From positions 52,255 through 116,254 of the forward strand of contig JANQEO010000039.1 in the NCBI GenBank assembly GCA_028278325.1: a stretch of DNA of 64,000 bases, in the 5' to 3' direction. A program made the position numbers and the translations under genes. How positions within the stretch are numbered: the first letter of the stretch is position 1; the number at the start of each line of letters is the position of its first letter. Source of the stretch: Candidatus Binatia bacterium (lineage in GTDB: Bacteria; Desulfobacterota; Binatia; UBA1149; JAJCZL01). Positions 26,462 through 52,800 of this stretch are shown here, piece after piece. A model generated the notes under the pieces. That model saw only the letters and a program-made list of their open reading frames with translations, ran no database searches and was not told the DNA's origin.

Positions 26462-27925
26462 TCACTCAGACAGCCCGAAGGCCTGATCGACCAGGTCGGT
26501 AGCGATCGATAGTGCACTGTCGCCCAGGCAGGTCGGCACTGGCGACATCTCGAAGTGACAGCCCAGCAAGCCCGTAGTGTCCTTGCATGCGTCAATCTGA
26601 GAGTCGGCCTTCGACTGGAACTTGCCGATGTCGGCAGCCACTGCCGTCGGGCAATCGACCGGGCTGACGGCCTGGATGTTGGACACCTCGCAGGTGCCGA
26701 GGCTCTTGTGGATGCCTTTGAGGGCCTTCTGTATGCCTTTGCTGAGCTTCTTCTGGCACTTGGCCGCGTCGACCGTGCCTGCCGTGTTGCCGGGAAGGTC
26801 GGGGGGCGCGGTGCCCAGACTGTCGATCAGCGCCTGGTTCATGGCCTCGTCCTGGCGGCAGATCAGGCAGTCTACGTACTCGCTCATCGTGTTGACGCTT
26901 ATGCTGTCACAAGACCCGCCGCAGGTTTCGGGGATTCCCAGCAGTGAAGGCGTGAGGAACAGGGCTTCGCACTTGCGGTCTTTCTCGCCGCCGATCTTGC
27001 TACGCAGCTTGGCCTCGGCCTTCAGCAGCTTCAGGTCACGCCTGCCCGTATCGCAGGCAACGCCCGTGACCTCGTCGACGTAGCAGCGCGACCACTCCTT
27101 GAAGTGAGTCTTGGAGTAGCGCCTGAAGTTCTTGTCCACGTCGCTCAAGCAGGCCTCGCGGTCCGCCGGCGGCCCCAAGACCTCGACGAGTCCCAGTCCG
27201 CTCACGGGGATGTCGATGTCGGGCTCGTCGGGATCGTCCGAGGACACGCGGAAAGTCCCGGACGCCAGGGTCAGTGCCGGAGGCGCGAACACGACATCTA
27301 CGGTTTCGCTGCCTCCCAGCGGAATGCTGAACGGCGGCGTCGGGCCGTTCGCCAGGCTAAACGTGGGGTCTGATCCCGGCAGGAGCTGGTAGTCGGTGAC
27401 CATGACGGGGTCGCTGCTGCCGTTGTTGCGAATCGTGACCGTCGTGGAGACGACCTCGCCGACGTCGGCCACGAATCCGATGGTTCCCGGCGACACGTCG
27501 ATATCCAAAGGCTCGAGGCAGGTCGGGACCAGAGGTGTGATGTAGGTGTCGTAGCCCAGCGGCGCTCCAACAGCGTCTTGGAAGTTGGAGCAGTCGTAGC
27601 CGGGCAGGGTCATGTAGGTCAGGATCTCGTCGACGTTGGTGAACCCGTCCGAGTCGCTATCGAATGTCTCGATGTCAGTGAGGGACTGGGTAATCGTCTT
27701 GCCGATGTAGAGCTGCTGCTCTACCGCCTGTCCGAAGAGGTTGCGGCCTCCGGTGCCGGTCCACAGGAAATGGCACACGCCGCAGGCGTGGAGGTCATCG
27801 CTTTCCTGGACCCCGTAAAGGGTAACGAAGTTGTCGAAGTAGCTGGGCCGGGCCTGGCTCGCGCTGGGAATTGCGAGAACGGCGAACAGGGCTATCGACG
27901 CCGATACGGTTGCTGCCTTGAGCAT
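26462..27925 (-). CDS. secreted monohaem c-type cytochrome-like protein with Ig-like (choice-of-anchor-D-like) domain and C-terminal Cys-framed helical domain
   Basis: I chose ATG 27925, 5 nt after the upstream stop, giving the signal peptide MLKAATVSASIALFAVLAIPSASQA. One CXXCH (ACGVCH). A Ca-loop-like DSDSDGFTNVDE. A beta-sandwich-like segment (..VSTTVTIRNNGSSDPVMV..DPDEPDIDIPVSGLG). The C-terminal ~232 aa are colinear with the C-terminus of the upstream cytochrome. Confidence 0.75.
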   Translation of the reverse strand: MLKAATVSASIALFAVLAIPSASQARPSYFDNFVTLYGVQESDDLHACGVCHFLWTGTGGRNLFGQAVEQQLYIGKTITQSLTDIETFDSDSDGFTNVDEILTYMTLPGYDCSNFQDAVGAPLGYDTYITPLVPTCLEPLDIDVSPGTIGFVADVGEVVSTTVTIRNNGSSDPVMVTDYQLLPGSDPTFSLANGPTPPFSIPLGGSETVDVVFAPPALTLASGTFRVSSDDPDEPDIDIPVSGLGLVEVLGPPADREACLSDVDKNFRRYSKTHFKEWSRCYVDEVTGVACDTGRRDLKLLKAEAKLRSKIGGEKDRKCEALFLTPSLLGIPETCGGSCDSISVNTMSEYVDCLICRQDEAMNQALIDSLGTAPPDLPGNTAGTVDAAKCQKKLSKGIQKALKGIHKSLGTCEVSNIQAVSPVDCPTAVAADIGKFQSKADSQIDACKDTTGLLGCHFEMSPVPTCLGDSALSIATDLVDQAFGLSE

Positions 27926-27930
27926 CGTTC

Positions 27931-30375
27931 TCACGGGTAGGCTACCTCCGTGAATACGGGCGCGGCCGCCCCGATGGCCGACTCGACGCAGGTCTGCACG
28001 TCCATGGCCGTGCCGGCGCCTCCGCAGCCTGCCAAGCCGGTGAAGTCGGTGCACTTCGATATCTTGTTAGAGGCCTTGGCCATCGCGTCCGCGATGTCTC
28101 CGTCCGGGTCTGTCGAGCAGTCCTCTGCCGGGTTGTTGGCGCCGGTGCGGTTGTCGTCCTCGCAGCTTGCCAGCGCCTTGGCCCAGGCGGCCGACAGTTT
28201 CACGGAAGCCTTGGCGATCAGCTTCTGACACTTTCCGGGATCGCCTGAGACCGTCGGCGGCAAGTCCGGAGGCTCGCTGCCGTAGGCGGCATCCAGAGTC
28301 TGGCCGGCGAGATGGTCGGCCGTGCATGCGGCGCAGTCGGCCAGGGAAGCGTTATCGAACAGTGTGATGTGGCTGCACGGTGCCGGGCATATCGAGGGCG
28401 CGGCGTCGCCATGGCCTATGGACATCGGCGTCAGATTCACTCCGGCGCACTTCTTGTCCTTGGCGCCGCCGACACGCTCGCGAAGCTTCTCAGCAGCTTT
28501 GGCCACACGCTCGTCGCGCCGGGTCTCGTCGCAGCTCAGACCTTTGGCCTCGCTCCCGAAGCACTTGGCCCACTCGCGCGCATATTTCTTTTGATAGCGG
28601 GCCTGGTTCTTGGAGACGCTCTTGTGGCAACGGTTCACGACGTCGGTGTCGGTCTCCAGGAAGCCGTAGGCCATTACGACGGGCTCAGACTTGCCGTGGT
28701 CGTTCCACAGGTCGAACAGGATGTTGCCGGATGCCGTGGTTACGTCCGTGTCACGCAAGAACTCGATGTATTCCTTGGATGCGGTCTGGTAGTAGAGCGT
28801 CGCCTCGGCCTGCACCGCGTCGACTCCGACGGGATAGACCACATCGTCCCAGTACTGACCGTCCAGGAAGGTCACGCCTACCGGGTCGCCGTCGAAAGCG
28901 TCGAAGGCGGCGTTGGTGAATCCGCGCGGCGGAATCCGGTTGTCGAACTCAATCGTGTCGTTGAGAACGAGGTGGAAGCTCGGTCCGGGATTCAGGCCCA
29001 AGGTCATCGCCCAGCCGGGGCTCAGCCCGTGGATGGTTTCCCACACGTAGAGATAGGGATCGTAGTCGGGGTCCATCGGCAGAGCTTCGTATCCCAGCAG
29101 GTCGGCGGTAGAGAACACGTAGCGGCCGGACTCGAAGATGACGTTACGGTCGGCGTCGAAGGCGCGCACATGAAGCCACATGCGCCGTCCTTCGGGGTAA
29201 CCCGTCGGCAGCTTGTGACCGGTCTCGTTCCTCACCGTCACCGTGAGATCGCCGGCGTTGAGAGACATCGACATCGTCGCGGCCTTACGCAGGTTGCGTA
29301 TGGCTACTTCTACCGAGTCGGCCATCACGTCGGCGTCGACCTCGGACCCGAAGGCCGGGTGGTGGGGCAACACCGTCGGTATGAAAGTGTTGGCGCCCTC
29401 GAAGGTGTGAAGCGGAACATCGTCGCGGGTCAGTCCCGTGTTCGCATCCTTACCCGACACGTCGGGCATGTGGCAGTCCTGGCAGGTCGAGACGGTATCT
29501 TTGTTACGCCCGAACTGCGGTGCAATGACGCCGGTGGTGGCGTACTCGCTCGCAGCCCATTCGTCGTAGGTGACCTGCTCGGGGAAGCCGAGTGTCGGAT
29601 CTCCCGGGGTGTCCAGGGGATTAGGCACGTAGTTGCCCATGGCGTCGCGCGTGAACACTGGGTTCCTGAGGTTGTGACAGGTCCCGCACATGTCGGAGCT
29701 TTCGTGGAATGGAGAAATGATCGTCGTGCGGTCGGGTATGTGCGGGTCGCTGCCCAGATCGCCGATGATGTCGAAGGGGCCGCGCATTCGCGCTTCGGGA
29801 TCCACCACCATCATGGCGTTGCCGAAGGCGGGGACCGGATCGGCCAGCGCAGCCAAGATTGCGGCATCCTCGGTAGGGTTCTCGGGATCGGCGAAAGGAT
29901 CGACCATGCGATGGCAGACGGAGCACTGCACCCCCTCACGGTCGTCGGCCGTCATTGCAGTGCCGTCTTCGGGTGTAGAGCGCCCTTCGAGCCAGCCCTT
30001 GGGCATGTGGCAGCGCAGGCAGGTCTCACCCGAATCGACCGCGTCCTGGTTCGCAACCGCCAGTGCCGCTCTCCACAGAGGGTCACGGCCGGCCTGGGCC
30101 ATCATCGATCCCGACCAGTTCAAGAAAGGCTCGACCTCGGGTTGGCCGTATCCGGAATGGCAGGGCGTGCAGTCCGAGGGAGGCCCAAAGTTGTCGATTA
30201 TCGAAAGCGGCTGAGTCCCGGGTGCTTCGAAGTCGTTGCGTGTGGTGGCCACGGGGAGCGACCATGCCGGCACCGCGGTTAAAGCCGCAAAGGCGAGCGC
30301 AAGAACGGCCGGCACGAACCGTGCCGACCGTCTTGTATTGCTTCCCCCCCTTGTAACCACCTCGGCTGACCTCAC
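27931..30375 (-). CDS. secreted pentahaem c-type cytochrome with C-terminal Cys-framed helical domain
   Basis: GTG start with GGAGGAG upstream, followed by a signal peptide. Five CXXCH motifs: CTPCH, CLRCH, CSVCH, CGTCH and CQDCH. A GHKLPTGYPEGRRMW block follows. The C-terminal ~236 aa (27934..28641) are homologous to the C-terminus of the downstream gene product. Confidence 0.85.
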   Translation of the reverse strand: MRSAEVVTRGGSNTRRSARFVPAVLALAFAALTAVPAWSLPVATTRNDFEAPGTQPLSIIDNFGPPSDCTPCHSGYGQPEVEPFLNWSGSMMAQAGRDPLWRAALAVANQDAVDSGETCLRCHMPKGWLEGRSTPEDGTAMTADDREGVQCSVCHRMVDPFADPENPTEDAAILAALADPVPAFGNAMMVVDPEARMRGPFDIIGDLGSDPHIPDRTTIISPFHESSDMCGTCHNLRNPVFTRDAMGNYVPNPLDTPGDPTLGFPEQVTYDEWAASEYATTGVIAPQFGRNKDTVSTCQDCHMPDVSGKDANTGLTRDDVPLHTFEGANTFIPTVLPHHPAFGSEVDADVMADSVEVAIRNLRKAATMSMSLNAGDLTVTVRNETGHKLPTGYPEGRRMWLHVRAFDADRNVIFESGRYVFSTADLLGYEALPMDPDYDPYLYVWETIHGLSPGWAMTLGLNPGPSFHLVLNDTIEFDNRIPPRGFTNAAFDAFDGDPVGVTFLDGQYWDDVVYPVGVDAVQAEATLYYQTASKEYIEFLRDTDVTTASGNILFDLWNDHGKSEPVVMAYGFLETDTDVVNRCHKSVSKNQARYQKKYAREWAKCFGSEAKGLSCDETRRDERVAKAAEKLRERVGGAKDKKCAGVNLTPMSIGHGDAAPSICPAPCSHITLFDNASLADCAACTADHLAGQTLDAAYGSEPPDLPPTVSGDPGKCQKLIAKASVKLSAAWAKALASCEDDNRTGANNPAEDCSTDPDGDIADAMAKASNKISKCTDFTGLAGCGGAGTAMDVQTCVESAIGAAAPVFTEVAYP

Positions 30376-30395
30376 GCCCGGGTGTTCTCCTCCGC

Positions 30396-32285
30396 TTACG
30401 GCGTGCAGTCGTTCGGCGAGAAGAAGAACTGCCCGGCTCCTCCGCCGGCAGCGTTGGCCGTGAAGCAGTTGTTGTGGTTGCCGCCGACCTCGTCGCCGAG
30501 TCCGTGGAACATCGTCGCCCCGAACGGCGCCGGAGACTGCGGGATTCCGCCGTTCTGGTTGAAGTTGTTGCTGCGCACCGTATTGCCCTCGGCGGTTTGG
30601 TCAGGGCTCGTCGGATCGAAGGGCAACGGCATGCCGCCAACCAGCACGTTGATGACCACCTGATCCAACAGTGCGAACCCGAACGTTTCGTTGAAGGTCG
30701 ACAGGTTGTGGTGGATGTCGGAGTTGTCGACCGACAGGATGATCATGCCGGTTCCGCCCGGGATCAACCCTACGGTTCCGGAACCGATGTTCACCGCGTT
30801 GTTGCTGATGTTCACGTTGCTGAACACCTCGTGATCGCTGCCGAGTTGTAGCGGCGGTCCGGGCAGCTTGAACACCAGCACGCCGCCGGAGTTACCAGTC
30901 GCGTAGTTGTTGTGTGTCCGAGAGTACTGAGAGTTCTCGACCTCGATGCCGGCAACGTTGTTCTCGACCACGTTGAAGCGAACCTCGATGTTGGTCGATT
31001 GGCCGACATAGATGCCCGCGTCGATGATCTCCTTGACGTAACTGGTCTCGATGAGAACGTCGTCGCTGGTGACGGGGAAGACGGCATATACCGTCTTGAA
31101 GTTATCGCCGTCACCGACGATATCCCTGAAGGAGACACCCTGGGCGCCGCTCACGAAGATTCCGTTCTCCTCCCAGCTGAACACTTCCAGGCTCTGGAAG
31201 TGCAGGCCATCGACGTTGGCTGCGAAGATGCCGTTGATGTCTGTTCCGCCGCCGTCAGGGATGACGCGGGGCCGGTCGTCTACATGGGCGCCGCAACCGA
31301 CCAGGGAAAGGTTGTCGGTCGTGATCGTAATCTCCTCAGCATAGTTGCCGGAGGCGATGAGGAGCTTGTCCCCGTCCAGGGCCGCGCCCACGGCAGCTCC
31401 GATGGCGCCGGCACCGGGGGTGACCAGCGTGGCCGCCGGCTCGGCATACTGACTCTCGAGTATCTCGTACATATAGGACCAGATCCCGTCGAGTCCGGCC
31501 AGGCTCAGGCAATCCTTGACGTCCTGCAACGTCTCCGCGTCAGGACACGCGAACATGTCGGCGATCGTTCCTATGGGACCCTCGGCCCCCGCCACGTCGC
31601 ACTTCTTGTCGATGCCTTCTCCAGCCTTATCGATGAGCTTGTCGATCTTGGCGTTTGTCTTGGTATCTGTCGGCAGCGTGTAAGTTCCGCCGGAGTGGGT
31701 GCCGACGCACAGAGGCGCGAGATCGCCGGCGACGCCGTCCTTCATGGCCTTGTCGATGCACTTGCTCATCAGCTTGAGGCCCTTGGAGACGACCTTGTTG
31801 CCCTGCTTGTCCAGTTCCTTGGCGCAGTCGGTGCGGGCTTTCGTGTCACGCGGTGTTCCGCCGATACCGTCGATGATCCCGATGAGAACATCGGCGCTGG
31901 CGTCGACCTGGCTCAGAGCGCAGCTCGATATCGCTGTCTCATCCGTCAAGGTCGAGTAAAAACCCGACAGTGCCGCCTGGGCGGCATCGTCCGAGCAGTC
32001 CGAGTTGATCTTGTCGACGGCCTTCATGCGGGCCTTGTCGATCTTCTGTGTATCTTTCTGCTCGGGGCACAGTCCGGGAACGGCCTGCTGGAGGCATTTG
32101 CCCATCGCCTTCATCTTTTTCTTGACATAGAGGTTGGTCATCTTGGTGATGGTCTTCTGACACTTGAGTGCGTCAGGGCCGGCCGAGTTGATGACCGGAG
32201 GCGAGTCGGGCCCCGTGATCGGCTGGGCCAGCGCGGTGCCGGCTGTCAATACGATTGCGGCGCTAATAGCGGCAAGTAATCTCAT
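30396..32285 (-). CDS. secreted protein: N-terminal Cys-framed Lys-rich helical domain + right-handed parallel beta-helix domain
   Basis: GAGGGGGA RBS and signal peptide MRLLAAISAAIVLTAGTALA. Residues ~38-262 contain KCQKTITKMTNLYVKKKMKAMGKC and DCAKELDKQGNKVVSKGLKLMSKC. The C-terminal half has repeated beta-helix rungs (NNVAGIEVENS, NNYATGNSGGVLV, ISNNAVN..). Confidence 0.8.
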   Translation of the reverse strand: MRLLAAISAAIVLTAGTALAQPITGPDSPPVINSAGPDALKCQKTITKMTNLYVKKKMKAMGKCLQQAVPGLCPEQKDTQKIDKARMKAVDKINSDCSDDAAQAALSGFYSTLTDETAISSCALSQVDASADVLIGIIDGIGGTPRDTKARTDCAKELDKQGNKVVSKGLKLMSKCIDKAMKDGVAGDLAPLCVGTHSGGTYTLPTDTKTNAKIDKLIDKAGEGIDKKCDVAGAEGPIGTIADMFACPDAETLQDVKDCLSLAGLDGIWSYMYEILESQYAEPAATLVTPGAGAIGAAVGAALDGDKLLIASGNYAEEITITTDNLSLVGCGAHVDDRPRVIPDGGGTDINGIFAANVDGLHFQSLEVFSWEENGIFVSGAQGVSFRDIVGDGDNFKTVYAVFPVTSDDVLIETSYVKEIIDAGIYVGQSTNIEVRFNVVENNVAGIEVENSQYSRTHNNYATGNSGGVLVFKLPGPPLQLGSDHEVFSNVNISNNAVNIGSGTVGLIPGGTGMIILSVDNSDIHHNLSTFNETFGFALLDQVVINVLVGGMPLPFDPTSPDQTAEGNTVRSNNFNQNGGIPQSPAPFGATMFHGLGDEVGGNHNNCFTANAAGGGAGQFFFSPNDCTP

Positions 32286-35155: not shown

Positions 35156-37195
35156 CTAGTACGGATACGGGCAGTTGACCGTGCCGTTGGCCAGGTACGG
35201 CGAACCGTCGGCACAAAGGCCGTCCGGACAGTCGCCGTCGTCGACGCAAGCCAGGCCGTTATTGGTGCCGCCTTGGCAGATGTCGACTTCAGGATACGGA
35301 TCGTCGTTGCATGATCCGCCCGGACAGTCGGCGTCGCCGTTGGTCGAGCAGTCCAACCCTGCATTCGTCCCGCCGTTACATGTCGCGATCGGGTTGCAGT
35401 TGCCGCTCGAGCAGATCACCGACGTCCACAGCGGATCGTCGTCGATCTGCTGCTGAATCCAGTCAGCGATTGTGATGCTCACGCCGGTCAGGTCCGTATA
35501 GACCTTGTCGCTGCCGAACATGCCGTGCTCGGACCCTGCGCCGACGTAAGTGGCGTAGTTGTCCCCGGTATTGGCAATCGTGTCCAGGTTCTGGGCCGCG
35601 CGGCCGGCATCCCAGCCACACTGCGACTCCCACCATTGCGGCCACACGCTGTTCAGGAAGCCCGCGGTGAACAACAGGTCACTGGGGTTGGGGTTCGGGT
35701 TGCTCATGACATGGAAGAAGGCCGCCTGGCCTCCGCCGCTGCCGTCGTAGCGACTCGCGAAGTTCGCGAAGTCATGCTCCGGGTAGGTGTTGGCCAGCGT
35801 CTCGTAACCTTTCGGTGTGATCTGAGTCTCTTCGAGTTTGATCTGCTGAACCAGCGGGTCTTCGGCGGCGGTGGCGTCGAAGTTCCAGTTGTCGAAGCTA
35901 TTGTCGAACCAATCCTGGGTGATCACGCCGTCGCCGGCATCGCCGAGCACGTCGAATTTTGATGCCGGGAATACGTTCTTGATCAGGAAGAAGCTGTTCA
36001 GCAACGCGCCGTAAGCTCCGGCGCTGGTGCCCGTCACATAGACCTGCTCGGGATTCACGAAGAGATCGCGTGCCAGTTTCTCCATGGCCTTGGCGTTGAT
36101 ACGGCCAAAGTGATTGACCCGGCCGTTGCCGGGTAGGCCGAGCGGGTTATCTAAGAGTCGTGTCGTTTGGCCCGTATGTACGTCGCCCGTGCAGTAGGGA
36201 ATGAAGACCACGTGCCAGTCGGCGAACGGGTTGGCCGGATTCGTGTAATCGGCGAATCCCGTCGTGTTGAAGGTCGGGTCGTCACCGGCGCCCGCGCTCT
36301 GCTTGAAGGTCTGGGCCAGATTGCAGGAGTCGCGGTTCCAGCAGGCGCCGCCGCCCTGATAATACATGAGCAGCTTGTTGACGCTGCCCTTGCGGTAAAA
36401 GCCCAAGTAAGTGCTTTCGGTGTTGAAGTCCCGCGAGCACTTGGTGTGCAAGACCTCACCTTCGTAGATCAGTTCCTCGGTCGGCGGATTCGGATTCGGG
36501 ATGTAAGTCGTGAAGCTGGCATCCGGCGTGTCCTGGACGCCGTGGGTGTCGTCCATGCTGCCGTCAGTGGCTGCCGCTACTGCGTCACGGATGTTCTGGT
36601 TGGTGACGGCCGGGCAGCCGGGCTTGCCGACCGTGGCCTTGTCGAAGCTCTTGTCGAACTTCTCGTCGGCTTTGTCTTGAATCTTGGTGCGCTTGGTGCC
36701 GGTGAGATCGGTGTCGTACTTCTTCAAGAAGAGAGCCTCGCCCTTGAGCATGCCGCCGCACAGTTTGGCCGCTGCGCCGAGAAGAGAAGACCTACATTTC
36801 TTCTCGTCGTCGTCGCCGGCCGGTACGCCGTCGAGGATCAACGTCTCGATGGCCGCAGTTTCAGTATCGAGCATCCCCTGGGTGGTGGCCAGAGGCGCCG
36901 GGCCGATCGTGCAGTCGACGTTCTTCTTTGCAGCCTTGTCGTCGGACTTATCGTAGGTCTTGTCGAGTTTGTCGCCGGCCTTGGAAAGCGAGTTGGCCAG
37001 TTTGGTGGCGTCGCCGGTTTTCTGGAACTTGCCCATGGCCTTGAGGACCGACTGGCAATACTTGGCCGCGCCCTTGAGCTTGCCAGATACGCAATCGCGC
37101 TGGGGATAACCTGCCTCGGCAGTGCCGACGCTTAGGGCCAAGAACGATGCGCCTACGAAAGTAGCGATCGCGAACAGTGCTGAACGACGAAACAT
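35156..37195 (-). CDS. secreted pectin-acetylesterase/Notum-like alpha/beta hydrolase with N-terminal Cys-framed helical domain and C-terminal mini Cys-knot repeats (paralogue 1)
   Basis: I chose ATG 37195, which has GGAGGAGG upstream and gives a signal peptide. The helical domain spans 36566..37111 (DCVSGKLKGAAKYCQSVLKAMGKFQK). PAE-family blocks are MYYQGGGACWNRDSCN, IPYCTGDVHTG, VTGTSAGAYG (GxSxG), VLGDAGDG and GAGSEHGMF. The C-terminus has CNGGTNAGLDCSTNGDADCPGGSC and CQGGTNNGLACVDDGDCPDGLC, and ends in VNCPYPY. Confidence 0.8.
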   Translation of the reverse strand: MFRRSALFAIATFVGASFLALSVGTAEAGYPQRDCVSGKLKGAAKYCQSVLKAMGKFQKTGDATKLANSLSKAGDKLDKTYDKSDDKAAKKNVDCTIGPAPLATTQGMLDTETAAIETLILDGVPAGDDDEKKCRSSLLGAAAKLCGGMLKGEALFLKKYDTDLTGTKRTKIQDKADEKFDKSFDKATVGKPGCPAVTNQNIRDAVAAATDGSMDDTHGVQDTPDASFTTYIPNPNPPTEELIYEGEVLHTKCSRDFNTESTYLGFYRKGSVNKLLMYYQGGGACWNRDSCNLAQTFKQSAGAGDDPTFNTTGFADYTNPANPFADWHVVFIPYCTGDVHTGQTTRLLDNPLGLPGNGRVNHFGRINAKAMEKLARDLFVNPEQVYVTGTSAGAYGALLNSFFLIKNVFPASKFDVLGDAGDGVITQDWFDNSFDNWNFDATAAEDPLVQQIKLEETQITPKGYETLANTYPEHDFANFASRYDGSGGGQAAFFHVMSNPNPNPSDLLFTAGFLNSVWPQWWESQCGWDAGRAAQNLDTIANTGDNYATYVGAGSEHGMFGSDKVYTDLTGVSITIADWIQQQIDDDPLWTSVICSSGNCNPIATCNGGTNAGLDCSTNGDADCPGGSCNDDPYPEVDICQGGTNNGLACVDDGDCPDGLCADGSPYLANGTVNCPYPY

Positions 37196-37497: not shown

Positions 37498-39537
37498 CTA
37501 GTAGGGATACGGGCAGTTCACGGTGCCGCCGGGAAGGAACGGCGAGCCGTCGGCGCAAAGTCCGTCCGGACAACCGCTGTCATCCACGCAGGCCAACCCG
37601 TTGTTGGTGCCGCCCTGACAGGTGTCGACGATGGCGACAGGGTCTTCGGCGCAGGCCCCTCCCGGACAGTCGGCGTCACCGTTGGCCGAGCAATCTCCGC
37701 CGGCGTTGGTGCCGCCTTGACAGGTCGCGATCGGATCGCAACTGCCATCGGCGCAGATGCGTGACGTCCACGCGACATCGTCGTTCATCTGCTGGTTGAT
37801 CCAGTCGACGATGGTGATGCCTGTGCCGGTGGTGTCCGTGTAGACCCTGTCCAGACCGAACATCGTGTGGGCAGAGCCGGCACCGACGTAGACCTGGTAG
37901 TTGCCGTTCGTCGTGTTGGCCAGCGTCGCAATGTGCTGCGCCGCGCGTCCCGAGTCGTACCCGCAGGTATCCTCCCAGTACTGTGGCCATACGTTGGCCA
38001 GGAAGCCGGCAGTGAACAGCAGATCACTCGGATTCGGATTGGGGTTGAGCATCACGTGGTAGAACTGCGTGAAGACCTGATCGTAGCGGCCGATGAAAGT
38101 CGCGAAGTCGTGCTCCGGGTAGGTGTTGGCGAGATTCTCGAGCCCCTCTTGGAAGACCAGCACGCTTCCCTGGTCGACGTTTGCCAGAATCGGGCTCTCC
38201 GCGGCTGTGGCCGCGAAGTTCCAATTGGGCAAGCCGTTGTCGATCCAGTCTTGAGTGGGAACGCCGTCGCCGGCGTCGCTGAGCACGTCGAACTTGGATG
38301 CAGGGTAAGCGTCTTCTATCAGGAAGACGCTGTTGACTACGGCGCCCAGGCCGCCCGCGCTACTGCCGGTCACGTAGACGTGCTCGGGGTTCACGAACAG
38401 GTCGCGTGCCAACTTCTCCATGGCCTTGGCGTTGACGCGGCCGCGATGGTTGACGCGGTCATGAGCGGGAGGGCCGATGGGATTGTCATAGAGCTTGGTG
38501 GTATTGCCGACGTGGATGTCGCCGGTGCAGTAGGGCACGTACACGATGTGCCAGTCCTTCCAGGGGTTGAGTGGGTTGTCCCAATCGGCGAGCCCGACAG
38601 AGCCGGGGGTCGGGTCGTCGCCGACACCGGCCGTCTGCTTGAAGAGCTGGGCCAGGTTGCAGGAGTCACGGTTCCAGCAGGCGCCGCCGCCTTGGTAGTA
38701 CATGAGCAGTTTGTTGACGCTGCCCTTTCGGTAGAAGCCCAGGTAGGTGCTCTCCAGGCTCGAGTCGCGTGAGCACTTTGGGAACAGCTCTTCACTTTCA
38801 TACATCAACGGAACGAAAGGGTTCGGGGTCGGCACATAGCTTGTGAAGGAGGCGTCCGTGACGTCGACCACTCCGTGCGTGTCGTCCATGGTGCCGTCGG
38901 TTGCCAGCGCTACGGCATCACGGATGTCTTGATTCGTGACGGTCGGGCAGCCGGGCTTCCCGATCGTGGCCTTGTCAAAGACCTTGTCGAACTTCGTATC
39001 AGCCTTGTCTTGGATCTTGTCGCGCTTGGTGCCGAGAAGGTCGGTATCGTACTTCTTCAGGTACAGAGACTCACCCTTGAGGATGCCGCCGCACAGTTTG
39101 GCCGCTGCGCCCAGAAGCGAAGACCGGCACTTTTTCTCATCGTCGTTTCCGGCGGGGACGCCGTCGAGAATCAATGTCTCGATTGCAGTGGTTTCGGTGT
39201 CGAGCATGCCCTGGGTAGTTGCCAGAGGCGCCGGTCCCATCGTGCAATCGACGTCGCCCTTCAGGGCCTTGTCGTCGGCCTTATCGTAGGCCTTGTCGAG
39301 TTTGTCGCCGGCCTTGGAGAGCGAGTTGGCCAGCTTGGTTCCATCGCCGGTCTTCTGAAATTTGCCCATCGCTTTGAGGACCGACTGGCAGTACTTGGCC
39401 GCGCCTTTGAGCTTGCCCGATACGCAGTCGCGCTGGGGATAACCCGCCTCGGCCGTGCCGACGCTTAGGGTCAGGAGCGACGCGCCTACGAAAGTAGAAA
39501 TCGCGACTAGTGCTGAACGACGATGCAAGAGATGCAT
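37498..39537 (-). CDS. secreted pectin-acetylesterase/Notum-like alpha/beta hydrolase with the same N- and C-terminal modules (paralogue 2)
   Basis: I chose ATG 39537, which has GAGGAGG 9 nt upstream. Same architecture as 35156..37195. Some N-terminal stretches are identical (GYPQRDCVSGKLKGAAKYCQSVLKAMGKFQKTGD). The nucleophile motif is GSSAGGLG, and the protein ends in VNCPYPY. Confidence 0.8.
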   Translation of the reverse strand: MHLLHRRSALVAISTFVGASLLTLSVGTAEAGYPQRDCVSGKLKGAAKYCQSVLKAMGKFQKTGDGTKLANSLSKAGDKLDKAYDKADDKALKGDVDCTMGPAPLATTQGMLDTETTAIETLILDGVPAGNDDEKKCRSSLLGAAAKLCGGILKGESLYLKKYDTDLLGTKRDKIQDKADTKFDKVFDKATIGKPGCPTVTNQDIRDAVALATDGTMDDTHGVVDVTDASFTSYVPTPNPFVPLMYESEELFPKCSRDSSLESTYLGFYRKGSVNKLLMYYQGGGACWNRDSCNLAQLFKQTAGVGDDPTPGSVGLADWDNPLNPWKDWHIVYVPYCTGDIHVGNTTKLYDNPIGPPAHDRVNHRGRVNAKAMEKLARDLFVNPEHVYVTGSSAGGLGAVVNSVFLIEDAYPASKFDVLSDAGDGVPTQDWIDNGLPNWNFAATAAESPILANVDQGSVLVFQEGLENLANTYPEHDFATFIGRYDQVFTQFYHVMLNPNPNPSDLLFTAGFLANVWPQYWEDTCGYDSGRAAQHIATLANTTNGNYQVYVGAGSAHTMFGLDRVYTDTTGTGITIVDWINQQMNDDVAWTSRICADGSCDPIATCQGGTNAGGDCSANGDADCPGGACAEDPVAIVDTCQGGTNNGLACVDDSGCPDGLCADGSPFLPGGTVNCPYPY

Positions 39538-41445: not shown

Positions 41446-41462
41446 CCGGACATAGCTGCTCG

Positions 41463-42551: not shown

Positions 42552-42740
42552 TCGGCGGGCTTTCGCCCACCTGTTGTCCTAACCGCTGCTTTGTCGAGCG
42601 GCTGTTGTCCTAACCGGCGGGCTTGCGCCCGCCTGCTGTCCTAATCGACGCTCTGTCGAGCGGCTGTTGTCTTGACCGGCGGGCTTGCGCCCGCCTGTTG
42701 TCCTAAGCGCTGGCTGGCTAACCGGCGGTTCGGCGGTTTC
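42550..42740. repeat. tandem array of five 31-bp units (two alternating hairpin types, i.e. ~2.5 x 62 bp) plus a degenerate sixth, filling a convergent intergenic gap
   Basis: Units start at 42550, 42581, 42612, 42643 and 42674. Type A is aaYCGGCGGGCTTGCGCCCGCCTGYTGTCCT, a 7-bp GC stem with a 4-nt loop. Type B is aaYCGMYGCTYTGTCGAGCGGCTGTTGTCYT. All units share the tail CTGTTGTCCTAA. Confidence 0.85.
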
Positions 42741-45700: not shown

Positions 45701-46042
45701 CAGCGTTCTCGTGACCCGCGGGACCCCGCTGACGTCGACGATGCTGATGCTGTCGGAAAGATGGTTGACGACCCAGACCTCGGTGTTGGTGCGCGCGGCC
45801 ACCGCGACGGGTTCCATGCCGACGGCCACCGAGCCGGAGCGCGTGATCCCGCCCGGTCCGACGTCGAAGATCTCAAGGGTGTTGTCAGGGGTATTACACA
45901 CGAAAAGGCGGGTCTTGTCCGGTGACAGGGCCAGAGGGCGCACGGGCCCGCTTTCGAAGGTGATGAAGTCGGTTTGGGCTTGGGCAGGCGCCGCAGATAC
46001 GGCGAAGACAAAGGCAATCAAGGCGACGGAGAGAGTTCTCAT
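42740..46042 (-). CDS. secreted fusion protein: beta-propeller region + dihaem cytochrome c peroxidase/MauG-like domain + TSP3-type Ca repeat + Thr-rich linker + C-terminal beta-rich domain
   Basis: I chose ATG 46042, 20 nt after the bcp stop, giving the signal peptide MRTLSVALIAFVFAVSAAPAQA. The N-terminal ~500 aa have YVTN/lactonase-like blade repeats (LFVCNTPDNTLEIFDV, KLYVSNTEARNEV, TLYLAAFGSGKIGVFD). Two CXXCH motifs (CASCH, CNVCH). KTPHLRNQY and GFGFTHDGSFDTV resemble the CCP blocks PSLRN and HDG. The TSP3-like repeat is DRDGDGHMNRADNCADVPNPTQNDTD. The linker is a Thr/Ser run of the type TTTTTTSTTTT... Confidence 0.8.
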   Translation of the reverse strand: MRTLSVALIAFVFAVSAAPAQAQTDFITFESGPVRPLALSPDKTRLFVCNTPDNTLEIFDVGPGGITRSGSVAVGMEPVAVAARTNTEVWVVNHLSDSISIVDVSGVPRVTRTLLVGDEPRDIVFAGSGGDRAFITTAHRGQNSPYPRGEYDVEGVGRADVWVFNANSLGAAMGGTPLSIVTLFGDKPRALAVSPDLSTVYTAVFRSGNQTTTLNEASVCDTSPANAAAETVEGPCSVDGVIMPGGYPPPHKNQEGVAKNETGLIVKLNRDGGTSDTWQDELGRDWSAAVRFELPDLDVFAISANANPPVETDSFAHVGTILFNMAVNPVSGKLYVSNTEARNEVRLEGFGTISGPIKPMGEPASVRGRLAESRITVIEPAGAVTPRHLNKHIDYSAIPQPAGAQDKSLSTPVGMDISADGQTLYLAAFGSGKIGVFDTNALENDTFVPDAADHITLSGGGPAGVVVDGDLLFTLTRFNNSVVVVDLTLGSVGTEIQRVPLHNPEPLRVINGRPFLYDAILTGSNGEASCASCHLFGDMDDLAWDLGDPDGLVAENTNPLRAGAPTDFHPIKGPMITQSLRGLADMGPQHWRGDRQGDAVQAFNAFNVAFPGLVGRDEGEFSAADMQKFTDFALEIRYPPNPLRQLDNSLRPDESIGSGIFFGPTSDTTGSCNVCHIISPSEGFFGADGTSTEQGTVRELKTPHLRNQYQKIGMFGMARTPRLPTSGDYTNQGPQVRGFGFTHDGSFDTVRRFFELNVFDTNIGSGVDIEAFMLVFDTDLPPIVGQQITKTSTSAATVDTRINDMITAAATPYPSKLLGPGSTQCDVVIKGTVGTDQISALLLPGGDVQPDDGSSPVEESSFRTQASVPGQELTYTCAPFGSGTRMALDRDGDGHMNRADNCADVPNPTQNDTDMNGIGNACEPGATTTTTTTSTTTTSTSTTTTTLPPPRPFITKTMKVTRLTKAAGEQRVKLKSEELDESGLVFDPPSQTVSLSIEDGASTIASMTLDPGDPDWSTNNKGNRFKWKPSAPPQADGLWRVTIKVRDSGYKLNVTFKDSDASAASAAASADVTFTVGDGTWIGTTPPCTLSGSGNSLRCK
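43205..43264 (-). repeat. Thr/Ser-rich linker coding low-complexity tract in the CCP-fusion protein
   Basis: Encodes TTTTTTTSTTTTSTSTTTTT. The composition matches the linkers in the 24700 gene, but the nucleotide sequence is not identical. Confidence 0.9.
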
Positions 46043-46061
46043 GGCGGCGGACCGAGTCGGA

Positions 46062-46529
46062 CTATAGGGCTTTGACGGCCTCCAGCACCTCGTCGGCGTG
46101 CCCATCGACTTTGACCTTTCGCCATTCACGGCGCAAGACGCCTTTTGCGTCTATGAGGAAGGTGCTTCGCTCGACGCCCCTTACCTGCTTGCCGTACATG
46201 TTCTTGAGCTTGATCACATCGTAGGCTTTGCAGGCTTTCTCGTCCTTGTCGGAGAGCAGATGGAAGGGGAACCCCTGCTTGTCCTTGAACTTCTCGTGCG
46301 ATGCTGTCGAGTCTCGCGAGACGCCGAGGATCACGGCGCCGGCGCGCTTGAACTTGGCGTGAGCGTCGCGGAAGTCGCCTCCCTCACGCGTGCATCCGGG
46401 GGTGCTGTCCTTTGGGTAGAAGTACAGAACTACCTTCTTGCCCTTCAACGTGGACAGCTCGATGGTCTGATCGCCCGTGGCAGGGAGTTTGAAGGCCGGG
46501 GCTTTCTTACCGACGGCTACAGTAGGCAT
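46062..46529 (-). CDS. bcp: thioredoxin-dependent peroxiredoxin Bcp
   Basis: VVLYFYPKDSTPGCTREG contains the peroxidatic Cys motif. Length and overall pattern fit Bcp/PrxQ. Confidence 0.9.
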   Translation of the reverse strand: MPTVAVGKKAPAFKLPATGDQTIELSTLKGKKVVLYFYPKDSTPGCTREGGDFRDAHAKFKRAGAVILGVSRDSTASHEKFKDKQGFPFHLLSDKDEKACKAYDVIKLKNMYGKQVRGVERSTFLIDAKGVLRREWRKVKVDGHADEVLEAVKAL

Positions 46530-49741: not shown

Positions 49742-49771
49742 TAGTCGCGGTTGTGTACAGCACGCAGTTGA
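49742..49771 (+). promoter_or_regulatory. sigma70-like promoter candidate for the 49813 giant Cys-rich protein gene
   Basis: TTGACA-N18-TACAGC, about 40 nt upstream of ATG 49813. Confidence 0.4.
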
Positions 49772-49812
49772 ACACCCAGTCAGGCTGCGGCAACGAGCAC
49801 AAGGGGGGCCAT

Positions 49813-52800
49813 ATGGCTTTTCAGCGGATTCGAACTGTTTCGCTGCTTTCTCCCATCGGCGCGGCATTAATTTTTTTAGCCGCCACTGCAACGAACACCT
49901 TCGCCGGCAAGGATCATTGCCGAACTCTCACACTCGACGGCTCCGCCGGAGAAACCTCCACCGATAGCGTGGTCTTTCGCATGGTCGACGAGACCGGCGC
50001 CGATGTCATAGACGAATCGTGTCAGATCACGGTTCAGAGCAGCGAGGACGCCGAAGACTTCGGTGAGCGACTGCCGGTACAATGGTATACCGACGATCTG
50101 ACGATCGCGGCGCCGCCGTGCGCGACCGACGCCGAAGCTCTCGCGTTGGCGACCAAGCCCAACGGCAAGATCAAGTATCCGAAGAAGGTGTGCAGCACCG
50201 GAATCGGTTCGGGCTCGTGCAAGATCAAGTTCACCTACAAGGTCAAGAAGTCGACCGGTGAAGTGAAGAAGGGGCCCCAACTCGACATCTGCTGCTGGGA
50301 GACACCCGACTGCAAGGGAACCAAGTGGGGCAAGGGTTCGGAAGACGACCCCATCAATCTGCAGGTTCGAAACAATAACGTGTCCCTCAGTTTCCTGCCC
50401 GCCGAAGAATCGCTTCCCGCCGCCATCGGCGCCACCAGCGATCTCGTTGTAGACCCGATCGGCATGGAACAGCGGCCCGACCCCGGGATCCAGGACTGCC
50501 GCAAGGTGATAACCGGTTCTACCGACAAGCTGGCCAACAAGATGTATTCGGTGCTCAGGGCCTGCCACCTGGCCCCCGGCGTACCGGATCACTCGGTCTG
50601 TAACACGATTTCGCCTGCGTCGGACCCCGACGGCGACGTCTCCGCAGCCGTGACCAGCCTGCGTGACGATGCCCGCGAGGCGTGTGCGAGCCTCGGCTCC
50701 CCATCGAAGCTGTCCTTCACTGAGTGCCCTGCGCCCTGCGGGGGGATCATCAACGGGCCGAAGTGTGTCGGAGGTCCCAACGACGGCGTATCGTGCCGTA
50801 TCGACTCCGAGTGTGACTCCGAAAGGCGCTGCGCCGCGGGAGTTCTCGGTCCTCCGTGCTCGGACGACAACGACTGTTCGGTAAGCGGCATCTGTCTGGA
50901 TCACGGTTTCTGCGCCGGGCCTTTGTGCTCTATCGATTCGGACTGCGACGCTGCGCCGGGCGACGGCAAGTGCGTGCGTAAGGGTGACGGTGTCTGCAAG
51001 GATCGCTGCTCGGCTCCTGCTGCTACCTTCGGCGATACTTGCGCTGTGGACGAGGACTGCGATTCTGCGCCCAGCGCGGGCGACGGCCGCTGCGGAGACT
51101 GGGGCGAGGTTTCCGATTGCAGTTCGTGTCTTGTGCGAGCAGCGGTCGAGAGCACCATGGCGACGCTGACCGGTCCCACGGGTACGCCGCTGGGTGGGCT
51201 GAGTCCGGAAGGGCTCGACTGTAAGGAGTTTCTCCTCAAGAGCGTCGCGACGCTGCAGAAGGTAGAACTCAAAGAGACGAGCACCTGTCAGAAGCTCGTC
51301 GACAAAGGCAAGATCGCCTTGCCCGACGGTGTCGGCAAGTGCAAGGACGCTGATCGCAAGGGCAAGCGCGCGCTCGCTGCGTCGAAGTTCCAGAATGCTC
51401 TGTTGGACGGTAAGGGTTGCTTCCCGGGCTCCATCGGCGAGCTGGACACTTGCGGCAACGATGCAACCACACTCGGTATCTGCGCCGTTGCCGCAGTCAA
51501 CGACGTCAACGAGGCCTACTCGACTGCCGCCATCCCCGAGTCACGCTGCGGAGACAACAAGCGGATTGGTGAAGAATGCGATGACGGCAACAACACTGCC
51601 GGTGACGGTTGCGCGGCGGACTGCACCTGTGAAGGAACCTGCGGCGACGGCAGCCTGAACCCGTTGGAGGTCTGCGGCGAGCTTTGCGACGACGGCAACA
51701 CCGTCAACGGTGACGGTTGTGACAACAACTGCACGCCGACCGGCTGTGGAAACGGCATCATCACGGCCGGTGAGGACTGCGAGTCGGATTCCGACTGCGC
51801 CGTCGGCCAGACCTGCAATAGCTGCATGTGCGTAGGCCCGGGCGGAGCCTGCCCGGCTTTCTTGGATCTCTCAGTAAACGCGGGCCATGCCGGCGGAGAT
51901 ACCTCTCACGACTTGGGTTGGACGGGGTGGCACCACGCCACTGACAGCCCCGACGGCGCCGGGATACGGCTGGGCCTCGACTGCGATCCGGGCTGCATGT
52001 CTTGCACTGTCACCGGTATCGACCCGGCCAGAGGCAACTGCCGGTGTTCCAACAGCACCGACAACGTCTGCACCACTCCGTTGGCGGCGGCGGCGGAGTG
52101 CGGCGGCGCTCAGTGCGACTGCTATACATCACCGCCACAGCCTGTGGTTGCTGCGGGGGTTCCACTTTGTTCCCTGCCGCGGCTTGGGGCGAACGTGTCG
52201 GGAACATGGAGTCCAGGTCTCGGTGCCGGGGCCCTGAACATCGATGAGTTTTCTGCCGTGTATGTCGGGATCGATGTCGGCCAGCCTTGCCCCGTCTGTG
52301 TCGGCGATCCGGTCGCCAATGACGGGGTACTCGGCGGCACCTGCAGCGGAGGACCCAGCAATGGCTCCGGATGCGATGTGAACGCAACGGATCCGGCCTT
52401 CGGCGACGTCAGCTACAACTGCCTTCCCGATTCGGGCTCTAACATCACCGGTGTCGGGTTGCGGATCAAAAGGACGGATACGACCGGGTCGTTCTCGCTG
52501 CCGGCCGGCCTGACCTGCAGTCCACCTCTGTCGGGACTCGACTGTCCCTGCGCTGTGTGCAGCCTCGACAACACCATCGCCTGCAGCTCTGATACGGACT
52601 GCTCATCTGTCGGGGCCGGTACGTGTTCTGCCGTAGGCTCCGGGGTACCGACGCAACCTAACGACTGCTCCAGTGATGCCTTGGTATGCTCGGATGGCGG
52701 CGCCGGTATACAGGGCTTCTGTTCGTCATCGACCGACACCTATTGTGACGGTCACACCGATGCCAACGGCAGGTTCCTACTTCCTTGCAGCATTCAGGCC

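What the first reader, a model, noticed from the sequence alone, without database searches (positions are those of the whole stretch)
26465..51540. One Lys-rich, disulfide-framed helical module is reused in at least seven secreted proteins with unrelated catalytic parts
Seen in sequence: the recurrent unit is Cys, then ~20-25 residues of amphipathic Lys/Ala-rich helix, then Cys. Examples: KCQKTITKMTNLYVKKKMKAMGKC and DCAKELDKQGNKVVSKGLKLMSKC (31500..32174). DCVSGKLKGAAKYCQSVLKAMGKFQK and KCRSSLLGAAAKLCGGMLKGE (36566..37111 and 38899..39447). RCHKSVSKNQARYQKKYAREWAKC and KCQKLIAKASVKLSAAWAKALASC (27934..28641). ACLSDVDKNFRRYSKTHFKEWSRC and KCQKKLSKGIQKALKGIHKSLGTC (26465..27160). DCRKVITGSTDKLANKMYSVLRAC and DCKEFLLKSVATLQKVELKETSTC (50491..50745 and 51118..51540). 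The module is N-terminal in the beta-helix and esterase proteins, C-terminal in the cytochromes and internal in the 49813 giant protein. Inference: it may be a shared targeting, anchoring or assembly domain, functionally analogous to dockerin, SLH or CTD sorting domains. Alternatively it could be a common ligand-binding domain. I cannot name a Pfam/TIGRFAM family for it from memory.
Basis: partly seen in the sequence, partly recalled or inferred. Interest (0 to 1): 0.8.

Follow-up and report, generated by a model that had tools for sequence, protein, structure and literature searches.

The report
Unannotated disulfide-stapled helical domain, Binatia secretome
Six secreted proteins in this window share a real, previously unannotated 200-250-residue helical domain, which is widespread in uncultured Binatia-type bacteria, has no match in Pfam, NCBIfam or the PDB, and probably localises its cargo rather than catalysing anything.

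Summary
The core observation holds, with corrections. Six proteins carry the module, not seven. The quoted Cys-helix-Cys strings are only helix 1 of a larger unit. That unit is about 100 aa, has three helices and six conserved Cys, and always occurs as a tandem pair.

Homology goes beyond composition:
- Leave-family-out HMMs beat composition and Cys-fixed shuffles.
- An HMM built only from foreign sequences finds all six proteins and nothing else in the window.
- hhalign links the divergent esterase variant to the canonical family at 96% probability.

An exhaustive profile search of 1.84 billion representatives found 627 proteins, almost all with two units. Those that carry source names are "hypothetical" proteins from Binatia, Deltaproteobacteria or Myxococcota MAGs. 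No Pfam or NCBIfam model covers the module.

AlphaFold2 models are confident (pLDDT 91 and 89). Foldseek finds no PDB or viral relative (best E 0.1, TM 0.37 or less).

Helices 1 and 2 carry solvent-exposed ladders of conserved lysine (K:R 7:1).

The module follows the signal peptide in about 54% of relatives. In choice-of-anchor V proteins it sits where related proteins carry MYXO-CTERM.

Function is inferred, not shown. My best reading is a non-catalytic tethering or docking module.

The parts
26465..27160 (-). Module of protein A (gene 26462-27925). It is C-terminal and follows a GEGP-like dihaem region and a choice-of-anchor D domain. Unit 1 is 26813-27160 and unit 2 is 26465-26770.
   Evidence: HMM hits (E 2.7e-41 with the foreign-only HMM); NCBIfam; translation.
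27934..28638 (-). Module of protein B (gene 27931-30375, a multihaem c-type cytochrome). It is C-terminal. Unit 1 is 28279-28638 and unit 2 is 27934-28242.
   Evidence: E 5e-42; Pfam and NCBIfam cytochrome hits; 38% identity to the A module over 204 aa, E 5e-43.
31446..32174 (-). Module of protein C (gene 30396-32285, a TIGR03805 parallel beta-helix protein). It directly follows the signal peptide. Unit 1 is 31863-32174 and unit 2 is 31446-31838.
   Evidence: AlphaFold2 model pLDDT 90.8, pTM 0.90, two three-helix units.
36530..37105 (-). Module of protein D (gene 35156-37195, a PAE-family esterase). It is N-terminal and is the divergent variant: C1-x11-C1', lacking C2, C3, C4 and C6. Unit 1 is 36824-37105 and unit 2 is 36530-36808.
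   Evidence: hhalign 96.4%, E 1.3e-9; foreign-only HMM E 5e-7; AlphaFold2 pLDDT 89, six helices.
38863..39438 (-). Module of protein E (gene 37498-39537), a paralogue of D with 90% identity in the module. Unit 1 is 39157-39438 and unit 2 is 38863-39141.
   Evidence: E is identical to P0001, the top hit.
50485..51543 (+). Module of protein F (gene 49813-53106). It is internal. Unit 1 is 50485-50739 plus 51094-51180, interrupted by a 118-aa Cys/Asp-rich insertion at 50740-51093. Unit 2 is 51205-51543.
   Evidence: Foreign-only HMM E 4.7e-10, with both units at the expected places. The CPAPC and DCxxC motifs are shared with B.
26462..32285 (-). The C-B-A gene cluster, with intergenic gaps of about 20 and 5 nt. 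All three products carry the module.
   Evidence: The same three genes are adjacent in L002, L003 and L004 (same order) and in L005 and L006 (order B-A-C).

Best explanation
**Shown**
- The six proteins share one homologous, previously unannotated extracytoplasmic domain.
- It is a tandem duplication of a unit of about 100 residues, forming one compact all-alpha domain of 200-250 residues.
- Each unit has three helices:
  - Helix 1 runs from C1 to C2.
  - A short loop carries C3.
  - Helix 2 ends at C4.
  - A further loop carries C5.
  - Helix 3 carries C6.
- The domain is shuffled between N-terminal, C-terminal and internal positions.
- Its fusion partners include beta-helix proteins, c-type cytochromes, PAE esterases, trypsin-like proteases, beta-propellers and choice-of-anchor domains.
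- The named relatives are all from Binatia, Deltaproteobacteria or Myxococcota MAGs.

**Inferred**
- The cysteines form intradomain disulfides after Sec export.
  - In an up-down-up bundle, C2 and C3 sit at one pole and C1, C4, C5 and C6 at the other.
  - The D/E variant keeps only C1 and C5.
  - The likely pairs are therefore C2-C3, C1-C5 and C4-C6.
- The rigid scaffold displays conserved lysine ladders on the outer faces of helices 1 and 2 of each unit, opposite an acidic helix 3.
- Most likely the domain is a non-catalytic localisation module.
  - The lysine ladders would bind a common acidic partner, either an envelope or matrix polymer or an acidic protein.
  - Enzymes and cytochromes carrying the module, such as the co-encoded C-B-A trio, would then be held at the same extracytoplasmic site.

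**Confidence**
That it is a real new domain family: about 0.95. That it is a tethering or docking module: about 0.4.
For: **Homology**
- Leave-family-out HMMs and shuffle controls.
- Foreign-only HMM.
- hhalign at 96.4% probability.

**Family size and architecture**
- 627 representatives at E 1e-3 or better and 76 at 1e-10 or better, out of 1.84e9 proteins. Nearly all show two stretches.
- Position in the top 150: 81 N-terminal, 32 C-terminal, 9 internal, 28 module only or fragments.
- A signal-peptide-like N-terminus in 114 of 136 that start with Met.

**No known family**
- Pfam and NCBIfam do not cover the module.
- The source names are all 'hypothetical protein', from Binatia, Deltaproteobacteria or Myxococcota MAGs.
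- Related genome loci are a Deltaproteobacteria MAG and a Candidatus Binatia MAG.

**Fold**
- AlphaFold2 gives pLDDT 90.8, pTM 0.90 for C and 89.0, 0.86 for D. Each model is two three-helix units.
- Foldseek best E is 0.11-0.19 with TM 0.37 or less.

**Cysteines**
- Six columns are 68-100% Cys.
- Units mostly hold 6, 8 or 10 Cys.

**Lysine ladders**
- They lie 152 and 138 degrees from the hydrophobic faces of helices 1 and 2.
- K:R is 7:1 in the ladder columns against 0.37 in the rest of the same proteins.
- Helix 3 has an exposed acidic face.

**Localisation role**
- The module lies C-terminal to choice-of-anchor V domains, where the MXAN_6652 profile's last roughly 40 positions stay unmatched (from memory, its MYXO-CTERM region). 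It is also C-terminal to choice-of-anchor D domains.
- 0 of 87 proteins with downstream domains have a hydrophobic C-terminal tail.
- A and B end without any tail.
- Module proteins are encoded side by side in five loci from other assemblies.
Against: - No binding partner is identified, and nothing was tested experimentally.
- The module as a whole is not basic: mean net charge is -1.5 and 31 of 56 modules are net negative. Simple polyanion binding is therefore not obvious.
- Polyanion binding would normally tolerate Arg, yet Lys is strongly preferred. This is unexplained.
- The choice-of-anchor argument rests on how those NCBIfam families were named, which I recall from memory. It is positional only.
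- Co-encoding of module proteins fits hetero-oligomerisation or a shared substrate equally well.
- The C-terminal-tail heuristic cannot see beta-sandwich sorting domains, and some relatives are fragments.
Confidence: 0.4

Rival explanations
1. The module is a protein-protein assembly domain. It would homo- or hetero-oligomerise, basic ladder against acidic helix-3 face, joining co-encoded partners into one complex. Candidates are the beta-helix protein, the multihaem cytochrome and the dihaem protein of the C-B-A cluster.
For: - The three-gene cluster, with the module on every product, is conserved in L002-L006.
- Charge is segregated within a near-neutral domain: Lys ladders against an acidic helix 3.
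- Relatives with three or four units exist: P0089 has three stretches and P0068 has four.
Against: - Most family members sit on proteins with no evident partner set.
- No multimer prediction or co-evolution test was possible.
- The positions of the module (N-terminal, C-terminal, internal) do not distinguish this from tethering.
Confidence: 0.25
2. The module is a substrate- or ligand-binding accessory domain, like a carbohydrate-binding module (CBM). It would bring enzymes and cytochromes to an acidic polymer or a mineral or humic surface that is their substrate, rather than to the cell.
For: - The partners include polysaccharide-type folds: PAE esterase, parallel beta-helix, BNR/sortilin and lactonase propellers.
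- The Lys ladders are solvent-exposed.
Against: - The partner set is very heterogeneous (proteases, cytochromes, choice-of-anchor domains), which argues against one substrate.
- There are no aromatic platforms among the conserved exposed positions.
- The module's net charge is about neutral.
Confidence: 0.17
3. The module is a folding helper, pro-domain or redox (thiol-disulfide) module that acts in cis on Cys-rich cargo and is dispensable afterwards.
For: - It lies right after the signal peptide in 54% of relatives.
- Many cargos are themselves Cys-rich: F, the C-termini of D and E, and DUF4215 partners.
Against: - C-terminal and internal positions are common: 41 of 150.
- There is no CxxC-type redox motif conserved across the family. 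The C6-x2-C6' pair occurs in only half of the units.
- No cleavage motif is conserved between module and cargo.
Confidence: 0.08
4. There is no real domain, only chance resemblance of Lys/Ala-rich amphipathic helices flanked by cysteines.
For: Pairwise BLAST between some families is insignificant: D/E against the others gives E above 0.09. The leave-out HMM did not find F under the default filters.
Against: - Shuffle controls.
- Foreign-only HMM.
- hhalign at 96.4%.
- 627 database relatives with the same two-unit architecture.
- Confident and concordant AlphaFold2 models.
Confidence: 0.02

Closest known systems
SLH (S-layer homology) domains
   Same: - All-alpha, built of tandem repeats.
- Found at either end of otherwise unrelated secreted enzymes and surface proteins.
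- Non-catalytic. SLH tethers cargo to an acidic envelope polymer, which is the role proposed here.
   Different: - No sequence or profile match.
- SLH has three repeats of about 55 aa with a TRAE-type motif and no disulfides.
- This module has two repeats of about 100 aa, six Cys each and Lys ladders.
- Binding was not shown here.
Dockerin type I (cellulosome)
   Same: - An internally duplicated helical module.
- It is appended to many different secreted enzymes of one organism.
- It gathers them on a common partner.
   Different: - Dockerin is about 60-70 aa, is a Ca-binding EF-hand-like domain and is usually C-terminal.
- Pfam Dockerin_1 does not hit the module. It does hit the neighbouring protein J.
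- No cohesin-like partner is known here.
C-terminal sorting signals of choice-of-anchor proteins (MYXO-CTERM, PEP-CTERM)
   Same: The module occupies the same slot, after choice-of-anchor V and D domains.
   Different: - Those signals are short (Cys or PEP motif, then a TM helix, then a basic tail) and are processed by dedicated sortases.
- This is a folded 200-250-aa helical domain.
- It is mostly N-terminal and has no TM segment.
Duplicated helical bundles in the PDB (PhoU, ferritin-like/ADO, TenA)
   Same: They top the Foldseek lists. PhoU, from memory, is likewise built of two three-helix repeats.
   Different: - The matches are not significant (E 0.1 or worse, TM 0.18-0.37).
- Those proteins are cytoplasmic and lack disulfides.
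- Their conserved metal ligands are absent here.
PDB 4o5j_A, listed as 'Uncharacterized protein' (from memory the Helicobacter pylori SabA adhesin ectodomain; unverified)
   Same: It is the only PDB sequence reached by the family profile. It is a helical extracellular domain with disulfide-closed loops.
   Different: - E is 0.0076 at 18 bits, and the match covers only part of unit 2 with long gaps.
- Foldseek does not recover it.
- I treat it as unproven.

Membership tests
New family defined here (two-unit Lys-ladder, disulfide-stapled helical domain) | Two tandem units, each matched by one unit profile. | tested here: met
   All six window proteins give two unit hits at the expected places. 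Nearly all of the top 150 database hits have exactly two stretches.
New family defined here (two-unit Lys-ladder, disulfide-stapled helical domain) | Six conserved Cys per unit (columns 5, 27, 37, 61, 71, 85). | tested here: inconclusive
   - A, B and F keep all six, with two extra in unit 1 of each.
- Unit 2 of C keeps all six. Unit 1 of C lacks C5.
- D and E keep only C1 and C5 and add C1'.
- D and E are members by profile comparison but are a variant on this feature.
New family defined here (two-unit Lys-ladder, disulfide-stapled helical domain) | Each unit has three helices, and the pair folds as one domain. | tested here: met
   AlphaFold2 of the C module (pLDDT 90.8, pTM 0.90) and the D module (89.0, 0.86) each gives 3+3 long helices. 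A, B and F were not modelled.
Dockerin_1 (PF00404) | A match to the profile with paired Ca-binding loops. | tested here: not met
   No hit on the module in the six proteins or the 150 relatives. There is no DxDxDG motif.
SLH (PF00395) | A match to the SLH profile, with three repeats of about 55 aa. | tested here: not met
   No Pfam hit. The module has two repeats of about 100 aa.
MYXO-CTERM / PEP-CTERM type sorting signals | A C-terminal TM helix with a basic tail after a signature motif. | tested here: not met
   - A and B end in soluble helices.
- 0 of 87 relatives with downstream domains have a hydrophobic C-terminal tail.
- The MXAN_6652 profile is matched only up to about position 160-185 of 203.
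TIGR02232 / DUF4215 cysteine-rich acidic repeat | A CxDGxxxxxE-CDDGN type repeat. | tested here: not met
   The hits lie elsewhere: F residues 616-679, plus H and J. None falls inside the module.
PhoU-like or ferritin-like duplicated helical bundles | A significant structural superposition. | tested here: not met
   Foldseek E 0.1 or worse, TM 0.18-0.37.
Any family in AlphaFold DB, ECOD or InterPro beyond Pfam and NCBIfam | A structural or profile match. | not testable with these tools

The most novel reading that the evidence does not exclude
The Lys-ladder domain is the cargo half of a previously unknown docking system of Binatia-type bacteria. The strictly lysine-based ladders would recognise, or be covalently cross-linked to, a specific acidic partner. 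That partner could be an envelope polymer or the acidic Cys-rich repeat proteins encoded nearby. The result would be a cellulosome-like extracellular assembly of multihaem cytochromes and hydrolases.
Probability: 0.12. Interest if true: 0.8.

Novelty: new variant of a known kind. Interest (0 to 1): 0.55.

Why it matters
- Binatia are abundant, uncultured soil and sediment bacteria, and their secretome is almost wholly unannotated.
- This domain marks hundreds of secreted proteins, including extracellular cytochromes, esterases, proteases and beta-helix proteins. It has no Pfam, NCBIfam or PDB counterpart, so a family model would at once annotate a large set of "hypothetical" proteins.
- If it is a tethering or docking module, it would reveal how this lineage organises extracellular electron-transfer and hydrolytic proteins.
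- The confident models with no Foldseek match, and the lysine-specific ladders, make it an attractive target for structure determination and for a simple binding screen.

Tried and rejected
- **Word-indexed homology search, B module alone:** nothing found. The same search with short module-only relatives returned five proteins. Only the exhaustive profile search worked.
- **The search for related loci with the broad alignment:** The C-type sub-alignment found only two genomes.
- **PDB by sequence profile:** only a marginal 4o5j hit.
- **Foldseek against PDB (twice) and BFVD:** nothing significant.
- **Literature:** the searches 'Binatia + multiheme cytochrome', 'choice-of-anchor' and 'Binatia / signal peptide / cysteine-rich' gave nothing on this domain.
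- **A basic polyanion-binding domain:** weakened, because the module's net charge is about neutral.
- **Acidic DUF4215/TIGR02232 repeat proteins as obligatory neighbours:** not supported. CDDGN repeats occur in the window (H, F) but in only one of the foreign loci.
- **The LolA-like TP_0789 gene as a dedicated partner:** it sits next to the trio in L002-L004 but is absent from the window and not among the genes called in L005.
- **Standalone secreted modules:** at least P0026 is probably a split gene in a frameshift-prone assembly.
- **Disulfide geometry:** could not be read, because model coordinates are not exposed.
- **Cys presence/absence patterns:** too alignment-dependent to fix the pairing.


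Full report
**1. What is there**

The peptides fall in six genes:

| Protein | Coordinates | Description |
|---|---|---|
| A | 26462-27925(-) | GEGP-like dihaem region, then choice-of-anchor D |
| B | 27931-30375(-) | multihaem c-type cytochrome |
| C | 30396-32285(-) | TIGR03805 parallel beta-helix |
| D | 35156-37195(-) | PAE-family esterase |
| E | 37498-39537(-) | PAE-family esterase, paralogue of D |
| F | 49813-53106(+) | 1097-aa Cys-rich protein |

The annotations come from Pfam and NCBIfam. All six start with a signal-peptide-like N-terminus.

**2. The real unit is larger than described**

- Aligning the regions shows that 'Cys, about 22 residues, Cys' is only the first helix of a unit of about 95-130 residues.
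- Its layout is: C1, helix 1, C2, a short loop with C3, helix 2 ending at C4, a loop with C5 (often GCP), then helix 3 with C6.
- Each protein has exactly two such units in tandem.
- In A, B and F, unit 1 has an extra Cys pair. The motifs are CGGSC or CPAPC, and DCxxC.
- In F, unit 1 is interrupted by a 118-aa Cys/Asp-rich insertion (window 50740-51093).
- D and E are a variant: C1-x11-C1', with C5 kept and C2, C3, C4 and C6 lost. The Cys pair quoted for them is therefore not equivalent to the pair in the other proteins.

**3. Is the similarity more than composition?**

- Pairwise BLAST is strong only for A against B (38% over 204 aa, E 5e-43) and D against E (90%). It is marginal elsewhere.
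- Profile tests settle the question:
  - An HMM of the 12 units finds only these six ORFs in the six-frame window. The next hit is at E 1.2.
  - HMMs built without one family still recover that family: A 5e-6 and B 4e-4, C 1e-9, D 5e-3. F was not recovered with this small training set.
  - Each unit scores 13-27 bits against the HMM lacking its own family. Of 500 composition shuffles and 500 shuffles with Cys positions fixed, the maxima are 7.5-15 bits. Only D1 is reached, once.
  - An HMM built solely from foreign database sequences gives A, B and C about 1e-40, F 4.7e-10, D 5e-7 and E 2.8e-5. Both units fall at the right places, and the next window hit is at E 0.35.
  - hhalign of the D/E-like subfamily (D, E, P0060, P0085, P0118) against 55 canonical modules gives 96.4% probability and E 1.3e-9. 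It aligns 166 columns with both units in register.
- The refutation criterion 'compositional only' is not met.

**4. The family outside the window**

- The exhaustive profile search of 1.84 billion representatives returned 627 proteins at E 1e-3 or better and 76 at 1e-10 or better. Almost every one has two matched stretches.
- Among the top 150, the module follows the signal peptide in 81. It is C-terminal in 32 and internal in 9. In 28 it makes up the whole sequence, and these are mostly fragments.
- At least one apparent standalone, P0026, is probably a split gene in a frameshift-prone assembly.
- No Pfam-A or NCBIfam model covers the module in any of these proteins.
- The partners are diverse:
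  - From Pfam, of 150 proteins:

    | Partner | Proteins |
    |---|---|
    | parallel beta-helix / NosD-like | 17 |
    | DUF4215 | 8 |
    | PAE | 3 |
    | PPC | 3 |
    | trypsin | 2 |

    Lactonase, NHL, FG-GAP and BNR propellers and further cytochromes also occur.
  - From NCBIfam, of the first 93 proteins: choice-of-anchor D in 14, of which 11 also match the GEGP dihaem model, and choice-of-anchor V in 4.
  - A follow-up NCBIfam scan of ten selected proteins found seven with choice-of-anchor V.
- Names given by the sources are all 'hypothetical protein', from Candidatus Binatia, Deltaproteobacteria and Myxococcota MAGs.
- The two genome loci recovered are a Deltaproteobacteria MAG and a Candidatus Binatia MAG.
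- The window itself comes from a metagenome assembly.

**5. Structure**

- AlphaFold2 on the C module with a 68-sequence alignment gives pLDDT 90.8 and pTM 0.90. The model is all-alpha, with three long helices per unit.
- The D module gives pLDDT 89.0 and pTM 0.86, with six helices in the same 3+3 pattern. This supports D/E membership at the level of fold.
- Foldseek finds nothing significant:

  | Query and library | Best E | TM |
  |---|---|---|
  | C model against PDB | 0.11 | 0.30 or less |
  | D model against PDB | 0.16 | 0.37 or less |
  | C model against BFVD | 0.19 | not significant |

- The top hits are generic duplicated helical bundles such as PhoU, ferritin-like proteins and TenA.
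- A sequence profile against all PDB chains gives one marginal hit, 4o5j_A at E 0.0076. I do not rely on it.
- Model coordinates are not exposed, so disulfide geometry could not be measured.

**6. Conserved features and what they suggest**

- Over 230 units, Cys occupies six columns at 68-100%.
- Units mostly contain 6, 8 or 10 Cys. This fits full pairing in an oxidising compartment.
- For an up-down-up three-helix unit, C2 and C3 lie at one pole and C1, C4, C5 and C6 at the other.
- D and E keep only C1 and C5, which points to C1-C5, C4-C6 and C2-C3. The two C1' residues of D/E-like proteins always occur together and may link the two units. All of this is inference.
- The most conserved non-Cys residues are lysines:
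  - They sit at columns 4, 11, 15, 22 and 26 in helix 1, and at 45, 48, 52 and 59 in helix 2.
  - Their helical moments point 152 and 138 degrees away from the hydrophobic faces, so they should be solvent-exposed.
  - Helix 3 has an exposed acidic face.
  - In the ladder columns K:R is 7:1.
  - The rest of the same proteins has K:R 0.37. Housekeeping ORFs of this 62% GC window have K 3.5% and R 7.4%.
- The whole module is nevertheless near neutral, with mean net charge -1.5. The attached domains are strongly acidic, with mean net charge -22.
- Why lysine specifically is selected remains unexplained.

**7. Genomic context**

- C, B and A are adjacent on the minus strand, with gaps of about 20 and 5 nt.
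- The same three genes, each with the two-unit module, are adjacent in L002, L003 and L004 (same order) and in L005 and L006 (order B-A-C).
- A module-bearing PAE esterase lies 3 kb away in L005, as D and E do here.
- A LolA-like TP_0789 gene flanks the trio in three loci, but is absent from the window and not among the genes called in L005.

**8. Function**

- Nothing catalytic is conserved. There is no His or Met ligand, and the C6-x2-C6' pair is present in only half of the units.
- The domain is extracytoplasmic, rigid and promiscuous.
- Three observations favour a localisation role:
  - It sits after choice-of-anchor V domains, where the MXAN_6652 profile's last roughly 40 positions are left unmatched (from memory, its MYXO-CTERM region). 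It also sits after choice-of-anchor D domains.
  - A and B have no other C-terminal signal.
  - None of 87 relatives with domains downstream of the module has a hydrophobic C-terminal tail.
- That the 'choice-of-anchor' names denote domains seen with alternative C-terminal anchors is my recollection of the NCBIfam definitions.
- My best reading, at about 0.4, is a tethering or docking module whose lysine ladders bind a shared acidic partner.
- Rivals and their probabilities:
  - hetero- or homo-oligomerisation of co-encoded partners, 0.25
  - a CBM-like substrate-binding role, 0.17
  - a cis folding or redox helper, 0.08
- The hypothesis that the acidic DUF4215 repeat proteins encoded nearby (H, J, F) are the docking partner is attractive, but neighbourhood does not support it in the other loci.

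**9. Comparison with known families, and novelty**

- Functionally the closest analogues are SLH domains and dockerins. The closest positional analogue is the family of C-terminal sorting signals.
- The module fails the defining sequence or architectural features of each.
- It is therefore a new domain family of a familiar kind, the shared accessory module of secreted proteins, with a confident predicted fold that has no detectable solved relative.
- I could not search AlphaFold DB, ECOD or InterPro beyond Pfam and NCBIfam. 'Not yet described' therefore holds only for the libraries tested.

**10. Verdict**

- The function remains inferential.
- Interest is moderate, about 0.55. This is a useful new family for a poorly known phylum, with an odd lysine-specific surface, but it is not in itself a new kind of biology.

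Noticed in passing
window 26462-32285 (-); L002 7917-13766; L003 7740-13731; L004 5729-11446; L005 7602-13430: A beta-helix protein, an ~800-aa multihaem cytochrome and a ~485-aa dihaem/choice-of-anchor-D protein form a conserved three-gene cluster in Binatia-type MAGs. Every product carries the module. The function of the trio is unknown.
   Followed up: partly
window 50740-51093 (+): F unit 1 carries a 118-aa Cys/Asp-rich insertion in the loop between CPAPC and DCSSC, so one domain sits inside another. Similar 'C.GG.N.G..C..D.DC' repeats occur in the C-termini of D and E and in H.
   Followed up: no
window 25921-26064 (+), protein J 24700-26460: J has a Pfam Dockerin_1 hit just above the gathering score (24.3 against 22.9 bits). 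It also has TIGR02232 repeats and poly-Thr/Ser linkers. A dockerin-like segment next to the module-rich region is curious.
   Followed up: no
family-wide unit alignment (columns 4, 11, 15, 22, 26, 45, 48, 52, 59); e.g. window 32100-32170 in C: The exposed ladder positions are Lys, not Arg (7:1), in high-GC genomes where the rest of the same proteins favours Arg (K:R 0.37). This lysine-specific selection is unexplained.
   Followed up: partly
L002 6828-7610 (-), L003 6730-7515 (-), L004 4713-5495 (-): A LolA-like TP_0789-family gene (57-59% identical between loci) lies divergently upstream of the trio in three loci. It is absent from the 64-kb window and not among the genes called in L005.
   Followed up: partly
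window 40315-42551 (+): Two tandem paralogous ferritin-like di-iron proteins (376 and 362 aa; weak RNR-R2 and DUF455 hits) sit between the esterases and the large secreted proteins.
   Followed up: no
window 42740-46129 (-); L007 15320-18736: G is an 1129-aa secreted protein with beta-propeller/lactonase, CCP/MauG-like haem and TSP3 hits and a poly-Thr linker. It lacks the module. An 1138-aa gene with a faint Lactonase hit lies near module and PAE genes in L007, hinting at a conserved secretome island.
   Followed up: no
L007 6247-8294 and 12555-13794: The ERZ250394xx/395xx assemblies show genes split into pieces (AIRS in three, PAE in two). Apparent standalone module proteins such as P0026 may therefore be frameshift artefacts.
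   Followed up: partly
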